In this document: in pieces, positions 49,998-50,046 of the stretch
Layout: the number at the start of each line of letters is the position of its first letter
Numbering within the stretch: position 1 is the stretch's first letter
Source of the DNA: Escherichia coli
GTDB lineage: Bacteria; Pseudomonadota; Gammaproteobacteria; Enterobacterales; Enterobacteriaceae
Assembly (NCBI RefSeq): GCF_030384885.1
Contig: NZ_CP128613.1
Reading direction: 5' to 3' (one strand)
DNA length: 64,000 nucleotides
The notes under the pieces: generated by a model
What the model was told of the DNA's origin: nothing
Seen by the model: only the letters and a program-made list of their open reading frames with translations
The model's database searches: none
Position numbers and translations under genes: made by a program

Positions 49998-50046
49998 TTA
50001 GCTCTTTAGCTCTTTAGCTCTTTAGCTCTTTAGCTCTTTAGCTCTG
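49998..50046. repeat. octanucleotide tandem repeat (GCTCTTTA) about 5.5 copies
   Basis: Directly visible: gctcttta x5 plus partial copy, about 65–110 bp upstream of the 49455..49934 start. Confidence 0.95.

What the first reader, a model, noticed from the sequence alone, without database searches (positions are those of the whole stretch)
49998..50046. Octanucleotide tandem repeat (GCTCTTTA x about 5.5) in a promoter region: candidate phase-variation switch
A perfect 8-bp unit repeated head-to-tail lies about 65–110 bp upstream of the start of the 49455..49934 gene and downstream of the 50127..50684 gene. Repeat-number change by slipped-strand mispairing would shift promoter element spacing in 8-bp steps. 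The unit could alternatively be an iterated binding site.
Basis: seen in the sequence. Interest (0 to 1): 0.5.

Follow-up and report, generated by a model that had tools for sequence, protein, structure and literature searches.

The report
Hypervariable 8-bp repeat abutting a promoter
A perfect 8-base repeat sits one base upstream of the predicted promoter of an uncharacterised gene (DUF4756) in a mobile island of E. coli, and its copy number runs from 3 to 11 among otherwise almost identical islands, so it is a real mutational hot spot, but whether it changes gene expression is untested.

Summary
Window 49998..50045 is TTAGCTCT x6, perfect, non-coding and far beyond chance.

It lies in a serU-inserted ROD21-like (EARL) genomic island, on the minus strand between a RepL-like gene and a DUF4756 gene followed by an H-NS paralogue (hfp-type).

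The array is not inside the promoter spacer. It ends 1 nt upstream of the -35 hexamer of a predicted sigma-70 promoter (TTGACA-16-TAATAT). That promoter is nearly invariant in 16 related loci, including loci with unrelated upstream DNA.

Copy number is hypervariable:
- Islands with 0-3 substitutions per 16-20 kb relative to the window carry 3, 5 or 8 copies, against 6 in the window.
- Two further island lineages carry 4-10 and 4-11 copies.
- Alleles with 0 or 2 copies look length-stable across dozens of complete E. coli genomes.

Nearly identical RepL proteins accompany 0, 2 or 3-8 copies. In one lineage the array follows a different gene. RepL iterons are therefore unlikely.

Best reading: a slippage-driven repeat acting as a variable-length spacer just upstream of the DUF4756 promoter. 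A graded effect on transcription is plausible but unproven. A neutral repeat is nearly as likely.

This is a new member of a known kind, of moderate interest.

The parts
49998..50045 (.). Perfect 8-bp tandem array, TTAGCTCT x6 (AGAGCTAA on the transcribed minus strand). It is a hypervariable repeat (VNTR).
   Evidence: TRF, the repeat finder. Copy number is 3-11 in related islands.
50046..50053 (.). Degenerate flanking unit GTTTCTCT (AGAGAAAC on the minus strand). It is constant in all expanded alleles and in the n=0 alleles L001 and L004, but absent from the n=2 alleles L002, L003 and L012.
   Evidence: Alignment of 16 intergenic regions.
49969..49996 (-). Predicted sigma-70 promoter of the DUF4756 gene. 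The -35 TTGACA is at 49996..49991, the spacer is 16 nt, and the -10 TAATAT is at 49974..49969. The inferred start site is near 49962, which places the array at about -36 to -84.
   Evidence: Consensus scan, 10 of 12 matches. The segment is almost invariant in 16 loci, and homology to islands with other upstream neighbours breaks just upstream of the -35. No start site has been mapped.
49942..49945 (-). Shine-Dalgarno GAGG, 7 nt before the ATG of the DUF4756 gene.
   Evidence: Read from the sequence; conserved in the alignment.
49455..49934 (-). DUF4756 gene (159 aa), the first gene downstream of the array. Its function is unknown and the predicted fold is all-alpha.
   Evidence: Pfam PF15948, E = 1e-64. 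AlphaFold2 model with pLDDT 84 and six helices. No informative fold match.
48894..49298 (-). H-NS paralogue (hfp-type, 134 aa), the second gene downstream. In strain 536 it has its own mapped start site 339 bp upstream of its ATG, which corresponds to about window 49637, inside the DUF4756 gene.
   Evidence: NCBIfam H-NS and StpA models, E = 8e-53. 100% identical to the CFT073 serU-island protein. Promoter mapping in PMC2814080.
50127..50684 (-). RepL-like gene (185 aa) upstream of the array. No terminator is predicted between it and the array.
   Evidence: Pfam RepL, E = 3e-5. Named RepL in RefSeq annotation of relatives. Terminator scan.
50090..50103 (-). Site U, ATATCTCCGTAATA. It is a near copy (one inserted base) of the sequence that overlaps the -10 region and lies on the far side of the array. 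Only CGTAATA is conserved in other lineages. This is a weak lead for a flanking operator.
49970..49982 (-). Site P1, ATATCTCGTAATA, overlapping the spacer and the -10 hexamer. An inverted near copy (P2, ATACCTCGTTAATA) lies at 49939..49952 on the plus strand and overlaps the Shine-Dalgarno sequence.
   Evidence: The P1/P2 arms pair in the RNA fold of the intergenic region.

Best explanation
The array is a hypermutable tandem repeat that gains and loses whole 8-bp units by slipped-strand mispairing during replication.

It sits 1 nt upstream of the -35 hexamer of the conserved promoter of the DUF4756 gene, in a serU-inserted EARL/ROD21-like island. It therefore acts as a variable-length spacer between the core promoter and everything further upstream.

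With three or more copies, the whole zone contacted by the RNA polymerase alpha subunits (about -38 to -60) is repeat sequence and stays constant. Copy-number change then alters only the distance and helical rotation of upstream DNA. Each unit adds 274 degrees, so the rotation roughly returns every 4 units.

The expected output is a graded, multiphasic change in DUF4756 transcription, and possibly in read-through into the H-NS paralogue. It is not an ON/OFF switch through core spacing.

Shown here: the repeat, its position, its hypervariability, and the conservation of the adjacent promoter-like sequence. Inferred: the slippage mechanism, the start site, and any effect on expression.
For: - **Perfect array.**
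- **Lineage A** (E. coli; DUF4756 and RepL 100% identical to the window). n = 3 with 2 substitutions in 17.2 kb, n = 5 with 3 in 20.5 kb, and n = 8 with 1 in 16.3 kb, against n = 6 in the window. In each case the only indel is 24, 8 or 16 nt inside the array.
- **Lineage B** (host is not E. coli). n = 4, 5, 6, 7, 7, 9, 10, 10.
- **Lineage C** (a different upstream gene). n = 4, 6, 7, 11. One pair differs by 3 substitutions in 9.4 kb yet has n = 6 against 11.
- **Assembly breaks.** Several short-read and metagenome assemblies break or carry scaffold gaps exactly in the array.
- **Threshold behaviour typical of slippage.** Alleles with n = 0 or 2 span an identical 150 nt in 58 of 60 listed complete E. 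coli genomes.
- **Purity.** All expanded alleles are perfect repeats.
- **Promoter.** TTGACA-16-TAATAT abuts the array. It is almost invariant in 16 loci, and homology to islands with unrelated upstream DNA ends at the -35.
- **Established knowledge.** E. coli MutS-dependent repair handles loops of up to about 4 nt, so 8-nt slippage loops should escape it.
- **Precedents for tracts just upstream of a -35 that modulate promoters.** H. pylori sabA (PMC4081817) and N. meningitidis nadA (PMC2791445).
Against: - No transcription start site and no expression data exist for any allele.
- The promoter call is a consensus match in AT-rich DNA, where such matches are as frequent as in shuffled sequence (8 found, 7.7 expected).
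- Islands with entirely different DNA upstream of the -35 keep an intact DUF4756 gene (L005-L007). No specific upstream element is therefore required.
- The DNA between repL and the array is not especially conserved: 81-85% identity where RepL coding DNA is 98-99%.
- The observed copy numbers show no preference for any helical phase class.
- For three or more copies the sequence down to -60 does not change, so any effect could be small.
- Copy numbers come from other groups' assemblies, not from reads.
Confidence: 0.45

Rival explanations
1. The array is a selectively neutral repeat. It is a slippage-prone by-product in AT-rich non-coding island DNA that happens to lie next to a promoter, and it has no meaningful effect on any gene. 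It would be useful only as a strain-typing marker, like the repeat loci used for MLVA (repeat-length) typing of E. coli.
For: - Copy numbers spread evenly over 3-11 with no favoured value or phase class.
- Relatives with 0 or 2 copies, or with unrelated upstream DNA, keep the same promoter and an intact DUF4756 gene.
- The upstream intergenic DNA is not under visible constraint.
- A second, unrelated repeat locus (9-bp unit) exists in the same island family, suggesting general proneness to repeats.
- The array does not touch the -35/-10 spacing.
Against: - Its position 1 nt from a -35 hexamer is one where upstream DNA commonly affects promoter strength (established knowledge on UP elements and upstream contacts).
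- Perfect expanded arrays persist in three lineages whose DUF4756 genes differ by 10-16% at the nucleotide level.
- The array-bearing intergenic allele is 97-100% identical between lineages A and B, while the flanking genes are about 90% identical. This could reflect selection, or simply recombination.
Confidence: 0.4
2. The array is an iterated protein-binding site. It could be origin iterons for RepL. It could instead be an operator or centromere-like array of short head-to-tail sites, as bound by ribbon-helix-helix proteins such as omega of pSM19035 (7-bp heptads) or ParG of TP228 (8-bp period).
For: - Head-to-tail short repeats next to a promoter, and 81 nt after a rep-like gene, resemble those architectures (own knowledge of SaPI origins, omega and ParG).
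- Each unit contains the palindrome AGCT.
Against: - RepL proteins 98.9-99.5% identical to the window's occur with 0 copies (L001) or 2 copies (L003).
- In lineage C the array directly follows a different 197-aa gene and still varies from 4 to 11.
- The unit, alone or as a 13-mer with up to 2 mismatches, is not enriched anywhere else in the window.
- The DUF4756 model is all-alpha with no beta strand, so it is not ribbon-helix-helix, and it has no DNA-binding fold match.
- No ParA-type gene is adjacent.
- Functional site arrays are normally stable in number, whereas this one differs between near-identical strains.
Confidence: 0.07
3. The array acts at the RNA level. repL transcripts read through the array because no terminator is predicted. 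The repeated AGCU palindromes would form a copy-number-dependent structure that alters processing or stability of a repL-DUF4756 co-transcript. The P1/P2 inverted repeat would mask the DUF4756 ribosome-binding site only in read-through transcripts.
For: - No intrinsic terminator on the minus strand between repL and DUF4756.
- The intergenic RNA folds better than shuffled sequence (z = -2.3), with nested AGCU pairings and a P1/P2 hairpin covering the Shine-Dalgarno sequence.
- A repeat-dependent 5'-UTR/RNase III mechanism was recently described in H. influenzae (PMC12721329; abstract only).
Against: - The stems are 4 bp separated by 4-nt loops, which is weak.
- There is no Rfam match.
- Co-transcription has not been shown.
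- In many islands DUF4756 has no repL upstream.
Confidence: 0.05

Closest known systems
TAAA tract upstream of the nadA promoter of Neisseria meningitidis (PMC2791445)
   Same: A short-unit tandem tract lies upstream of the -35 rather than in the core spacer. Copy number is variable among strains. The mechanism there rests on differential spacing of distal promoter elements and on repressor (NadR) operators flanking the tract. Here a near-repeat of the -10-overlapping sequence (sites U and P1) also flanks the array in the window lineage.
   Different: The unit here is 8 bp, not 4. No regulator, IHF site or operator has been identified. Site U is poorly conserved outside the window lineage. No expression data exist. 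The host is E. coli or another member of the Enterobacteriaceae, and the locus is on a mobile island.
T-tract adjacent to the -35 of the Helicobacter pylori sabA promoter, a rheostat (PMC4081817)
   Same: The repeat directly abuts the -35 element. [quoted passage not shown] That is the geometry proposed here.
   Different: sabA has a mononucleotide tract that changes in 1-bp steps. Here the steps are 8 bp, and the DNA down to -60 stays constant once n is 3 or more. No UP-like element has been identified upstream of this array.
7-bp repeats upstream of hmw1A/hmw2A in Haemophilus influenzae (own knowledge: Dawid et al. 1999)
   Same: A multi-base unit in tandem in the promoter region, with expression there graded by copy number.
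   Different: In hmw the repeats lie between start sites and the coding region. Here they lie upstream of the predicted -35. The comparison is from memory and was not tested.
Repeat loci used for MLVA typing of E. coli (own knowledge)
   Same: Units of 6-9 bp, perfect arrays, strain-level copy-number polymorphism, presumed slippage, and no required function.
   Different: This array is carried on a mobile island found in several genera, and it abuts a conserved promoter upstream of an H-NS paralogue module.
Short head-to-tail operator or centromere arrays (omega heptads of pSM19035; ParG boxes of TP228) and island or plasmid iterons (own knowledge)
   Same: Contiguous 7-8-bp units next to a promoter and near a replication or maintenance gene.
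   Different: Copy number here is unstable and can be 0 with the same proteins. No ribbon-helix-helix or ParA partner is present. The array is not tied to repL.

Membership tests
Simple-sequence-repeat contingency locus (slipped-strand phase variation) | Perfect head-to-tail repeat of a short unit | tested here: met
   8 bp x 6.0 copies, 100% matches. All 17 resolved expanded alleles in relatives are perfect.
Simple-sequence-repeat contingency locus (slipped-strand phase variation) | Copy number differs among otherwise near-identical genomes, in whole units | tested here: met
   n = 3, 5, 6, 8 with 0-3 substitutions per 16-20 kb and no other indel. n = 6 against 11 with 3 substitutions in 9.4 kb. 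The overall range is 3-11.
Simple-sequence-repeat contingency locus (slipped-strand phase variation) | High-frequency, reversible length change within a clonal culture | not testable with these tools
   This needs reads or fragment-length analysis. The only hints are contig breaks and scaffold gaps in the array in metagenome and k-mer assemblies, which array length alone could also explain.
Simple-sequence-repeat contingency locus (slipped-strand phase variation) | Repeat lies within an ORF or between the -35 and -10, so that unit changes switch expression ON/OFF | tested here: not met
   No ORF crosses the array. The predicted -35 and -10 hexamers are both downstream of it, and the array ends 1 nt upstream of the -35.
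Promoter-proximal repeat rheostat (sabA / nadA type) | Repeat immediately upstream of the -35 of a functional promoter | tested here: inconclusive
   The position relative to a conserved consensus promoter is met. The promoter is predicted, not mapped.
Promoter-proximal repeat rheostat (sabA / nadA type) | Promoter output depends on repeat length | not testable with these tools
   No expression data are available. The literature search found no paper containing the repeat sequence.
Promoter-proximal repeat rheostat (sabA / nadA type) | Functional upstream element (UP-like DNA, operator or IHF site) whose spacing is changed | tested here: inconclusive
   Site U resembles the -10-overlapping site P1 in the window lineage. 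Only CGTAATA is conserved elsewhere, and upstream DNA is 81-85% conserved where RepL is 98-99%. Islands lacking this DNA keep the promoter.
Rep-protein iterons at a plasmid or island origin | Repeats co-occur and co-vary with the cognate Rep protein | tested here: not met
   RepL 98.9% identical with n = 0 (L001), 99.5% identical with n = 2 (L003), and 100% identical with n = 3-8.
Rep-protein iterons at a plasmid or island origin | Fixed position next to the rep gene, with a stable number of sites | tested here: not met
   In lineage C the array follows a 197-aa gene, two genes away from the RepL-like gene, and varies from 4 to 11.
Ribbon-helix-helix operator or centromere arrays (omega / ParG type) | Adjacent gene for a ribbon-helix-helix binder and a ParA-type partner | tested here: not met
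   DUF4756 is modelled as six helices with no strand. Fold searches find only family members or generic helical bundles. No ParA-like gene appears among the neighbours.

The most novel reading that the evidence does not exclude
The array is a true contingency locus carried by a mobile island of the Enterobacteriaceae. By slipping in 8-bp steps it would stochastically retune the DUF4756 promoter and, through read-through, the level of the island's H-NS paralogue (Hfp). [quoted passage not shown] That would make it a repeat-driven, heritable but reversible 'phasevarion-like' switch acting through a nucleoid protein rather than a methyltransferase, in a species where repeat-based phase variation is thought to be rare.
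Probability: 0.1. Interest if true: 0.75.

Novelty: new member of a known kind. Interest (0 to 1): 0.45.

Why it matters
E. coli and its relatives are usually described as relying on invertible elements and Dam methylation for phase variation, not on repeat tracts (own knowledge).

Here a multi-base repeat on a widely distributed EARL/ROD21-like island changes length between strains that are otherwise identical over up to 20 kb. It sits against the promoter of the DUF4756/H-NS-paralogue module, which is conserved across this island family.

If copy number tunes that module, it would add stochastic heterogeneity to the silencing of foreign genes. It would also give a first handle on the function of DUF4756.

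Even if neutral, the array has practical consequences:
- It is a high-resolution typing marker for strains carrying the island.
- It is a recurrent cause of assembly breaks.

The claim is directly testable with simple reporter fusions, because natural alleles from n = 0 to 11 exist.

Tried and rejected
- **Complete E. coli genomes.** Searching 5,426 genomes found the island module in about 680, but only alleles with 0 or 2 copies. No expanded array is present in that collection.
- **Exact-pattern scans.** Genome and metagenome contig scans gave only 6 loci. Strain-level data came instead from exact-protein look-ups.
- **RepL-iteron idea.** Rejected on co-occurrence and on lineage C.
- **Known RNA family in the intergenic region.** None at E <= 1.
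- **Literature.** No paper contains the repeat sequence. The papers mentioning DUF4756 only list it as an annotation.
- **Sites U, P1 and P2 as flanking operators.** The clustering is unusual: about 3.5 matches at edit distance 2 or less are expected per 20 kb, against three within 170 bp. My first fuzzy search missed site U because of non-overlapping matching, and I corrected this. Conservation of U outside the window lineage is poor, and P1 and P2 are confounded with the -10 hexamer and the Shine-Dalgarno sequence. I kept this only as a lead.
- **Promoter-like hexamers inside the repeat.** None is convincing on reading the sequence.
- **Preference of observed copy numbers for one helical phase.** None was seen among 17 resolved alleles.

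Full report
**1. The observation**

- Window 49998..50045 is a perfect 8-bp tandem array, TTAGCTCT x 6.0. Tandem Repeats Finder gives score 96, the strongest array in the window (sequence).
A degenerate unit, GTTTCTCT, follows at 50046..50053.
- The run of 40 consecutive self-matches at lag 8 compares with at most 12, for any lag from 4 to 12, in 30 Markov simulations of the window.
- The unit occurs nowhere else in the 64 kb.
- No ORF of 40 aa or more crosses it. The unit carries TAA on one strand and TAG on the other with a period of 8, so all frames are closed on both strands.

**2. Context**

- The chromosomal part of the window is E. coli: 100% identity to strain 2013C-4282 over 38000..42000.
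- G+C drops from about 50% to 32-40% after a tRNA-Ser(cga) gene at 43794..43883.
- The low-G+C segment is a genomic island of the serU / EARL (ROD21-like) type. It carries DUF6387, AlpA, a truncated H-NS N-domain, a full-length H-NS paralogue, a NACHT protein, SIR2/STALD and TIR proteins, and a MobA/MobL relaxase (Pfam marks; family descriptions in PMC6035254 and PMC10763509).
- Around the array all genes are on the minus strand, in this order:
  - a RepL-like gene at 50684..50127 (Pfam RepL, E = 3e-5);
  - 192 nt of intergenic DNA holding the array;
  - the DUF4756 gene at 49934..49455 (E = 1e-64);
  - an H-NS paralogue at 49298..48894. [quoted passage not shown]
- In strain 536, hfp has its own start site 339 bp upstream of its ATG and was judged monocistronic (PMC2814080). 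That position corresponds to about window 49637, inside the DUF4756 gene. The promoter next to the array therefore serves DUF4756 first.

**3. Geometry**

- A consensus scan finds TTGACA-16-TAATAT on the minus strand at 49996..49969.
- Such matches are common in this AT-rich DNA (8 found, 7.7 expected), so the scan alone proves little.
- In an alignment of 16 related loci, the segment from TTTGACAC to the ATG is almost invariant. This includes relatives with only 77-83% DUF4756 identity.
- In islands whose upstream neighbour is unrelated (L005, L006 = CFT073, L007), homology ends just upstream of the -35.
- On the transcribed strand the junction reads AGAGCTAA-T-TTGACA, so the array ends 1 nt from the -35 hexamer and spans roughly -36 to -84.
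- The array is therefore not between the -35 and -10, and slippage cannot change core spacing.
- For n >= 3, everything down to about -60 is repeat sequence and is constant. Only DNA further upstream is displaced, by 8 bp (274 degrees) per unit, with the rotation returning roughly every 4 units.

**4. Variability**

This is the decisive result. Look-ups of contigs encoding exactly the window's DUF4756 and RepL proteins returned islands that are nearly identical to the window except for array length.

| Lineage | Host and context | Resolved copy numbers (n) | Closeness of the sequences compared |
|---|---|---|---|
| A | E. coli; DUF4756 and RepL 100% identical to the window | 3, 5, 6 (window), 6, 8 | n=5 (GCA_904842275.1): 3 substitutions in 20.5 kb, only indel 8 nt. 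n=3 (SRR16760859): 2 in 17.2 kb, only indel 24 nt. n=8 (GCA_025828115.1): 1 in 16.3 kb, only indel 16 nt. n=6 (GCA_029997195.1): 74 substitutions. |
| B | Host not E. coli; DUF4756 about 90% identical | 4, 5, 6, 7, 7, 9, 10, 10 | Related islands 99.4-99.8% identical |
| C | DUF4756 80.5% identical; array directly follows a different 197-aa gene | 4, 6, 7, 11 | n=6 against 11: 3 substitutions in 9.4 kb. n=6 against 4: none in 6 kb. |

- In lineage A, two metagenome assemblies of one sample series have 100-N scaffold gaps or contig ends inside the array, with at least 7.8 copies on one side. Several k-mer assemblies also end in it.
- More distant alleles have n = 2 (three E. coli or metagenome loci and Citrobacter youngae) or n = 0, where AGAGAAAC-ATCACCAA occupies the position.
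- These short alleles look stable. In 58 of 60 listed complete E. coli genomes the intergenic match spans exactly 150 nt. No complete E. coli genome holds an expanded array.
- Together these features fit replication slippage: a length threshold, whole-unit changes, perfect purity in all 17 resolved expanded alleles, and change far faster than substitution.
- Loops of 8 nt lie beyond the roughly 4-nt limit of MutS-dependent repair (established knowledge).
- As single-stranded DNA, the AGCT cores can form small hairpins that may help misalignment.

**5. What it is not**

*RepL iterons*
- RepL proteins 98.9% and 99.5% identical to the window's accompany n = 0 and n = 2.
- In lineage C the array is not next to the RepL-like gene, yet it is just as variable.
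- The array travels with the DUF4756 promoter, not with repL.

*An array of sites for a ribbon-helix-helix-type binder*
- The DUF4756 model (pLDDT 84) is six helices without a strand, and it matches nothing informative.
- No ParA-type gene is nearby.

*A known RNA*
- There is no Rfam match.

**6. What it most likely does**

The mutational behaviour is shown. The output is inferred.

*Proposed reading.* The array is a variable-length spacer abutting the -35 of the DUF4756 promoter. This is the geometry of the H. pylori sabA T-tract (PMC4081817) and the meningococcal nadA TAAA tract (PMC2791445). In those cases length changes re-phase upstream DNA or flanking operators and give graded, multiphasic output.

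*A lead in that direction.* In the window lineage, ATATCTCCGTAATA (50090..50103) on the far side of the array nearly repeats ATATCTCGTAATA, which overlaps the -10 (49970..49982). An inverted copy overlaps the Shine-Dalgarno sequence.

*Why the lead is weak*
- The upstream copy is poorly conserved in other lineages.
- The upstream intergenic DNA is less conserved than repL in several relatives.
- Islands lacking that DNA altogether keep the promoter and an intact gene.
- Observed copy numbers show no preferred phase class.

*My estimates*

| Reading | Probability |
|---|---|
| Regulatory (rheostat) | about 0.45 |
| Neutral repeat | about 0.40 |
| Binding-site array | about 0.07 |
| RNA-level effect on repL read-through transcripts | about 0.05 |

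The RNA-level reading rests on the absence of a predicted terminator and on a modest copy-number-dependent AGCU structure.

**7. Mosaicism**

- The array-bearing intergenic allele is 97-100% identical between lineage A (E. coli) and lineage B (another host), while the flanking genes are about 90% identical.
- Conversely, E. coli islands with 98-99% identical repL carry an 81-85% identical intergenic allele with n = 0 or 2.
- The intergenic segment with its array has therefore moved by recombination between island lineages. This could be hitch-hiking or selection, and the data cannot tell which.

**8. Novelty and verdict**

- No paper in the searchable library contains the repeat sequence. The island-family papers I searched do not mention a tandem repeat.
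- The kind of element is known: a promoter-proximal simple-sequence or variable-number repeat. I file it as a new member of that kind, with membership in the functional 'rheostat' class unproven.
- It is of moderate interest for three reasons:
  - repeat-driven variation is thought to be unusual in E. coli (own knowledge);
  - the element sits in front of a conserved DUF4756/H-NS-paralogue module;
  - natural alleles from n = 0 to 11 make the question directly testable.

Noticed in passing
L029 3536-3623; L030 2926-2959; L031 2875-2926; L034 2906-2966 (= L011 7537-7597): There is a second variable repeat in lineage-B islands. A 9-bp unit, GCTCAGCAG, occurs in 9.8, 3.8, 5.8 and 6.8 copies near the 3' end of the gene homologous to window 52470..53432. 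The called product length varies with it (351, 333, 339, 342 aa), so this is an in-frame coding repeat. The window's copy of the gene has no such array.
   Followed up: partly
L001 15923-16198 (CP088875.1): A tetranucleotide repeat, (AACT) x 69 (276 nt), lies between a DotA/TraY gene and a hypothetical gene in a related E. coli island. The record is labelled a 393-kb plasmid but carries chromosomal genes (ybtS, mtfA), so the label may be wrong.
   Followed up: no
window 49939-49952 (+), 49970-49982 (-), 50090-50103 (-): Three near copies of ATATCTCGTAATA lie within 170 bp. One overlaps the -10, one is inverted over the Shine-Dalgarno sequence (together they form a dyad centred near the predicted start site), and one lies on the far side of the array. 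The cluster is more than chance predicts, but the distal copy is poorly conserved in other lineages.
   Followed up: partly
window 46832-48682 (+), 53608-55077 (+), 55094-55705 (+): The island cargo looks like anti-phage defence. There is a NACHT-domain protein next to the H-NS paralogue and a SIR2/STALD plus TIR pair resembling Thoeris ThsA/ThsB (precomputed Pfam marks). PADLOC models gave no hit for the NACHT protein, and the SIR2/TIR pair was not submitted.
   Followed up: partly
window 50054-50126 against 50127-50684, compared with L001-L004 and L034: There are recombination breakpoints at both ends of the intergenic region. The repL coding DNA is 98-99% identical to L001-L004 while the adjacent intergenic DNA is 81-85% identical. 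Conversely, the intergenic DNA is 97-100% identical to lineage B while the flanking genes are about 90% identical.
   Followed up: partly
L039 4302-4895; L040 4262-4855; L041 4294-4887; L042 948-1541: In lineage C, the called 197-aa ORF upstream of DUF4756 runs through the DNA homologous to the window's repL-array spacer. It stops at the first TAA of the array, 8 nt into it, so its end is set by the array but does not depend on copy number.
   Followed up: no
window 22763-27071 and 42727-42802: Four tRNA-Asn(gtt) genes lie in the chromosomal part. Short integrase fragments (Arm-DNA-binding and SAM-like domains, 65-66 aa) are called between the mtfA gene and an MFS-transporter gene in close relatives. 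This suggests a decayed island at an asn tRNA site beside the serU island.
   Followed up: no
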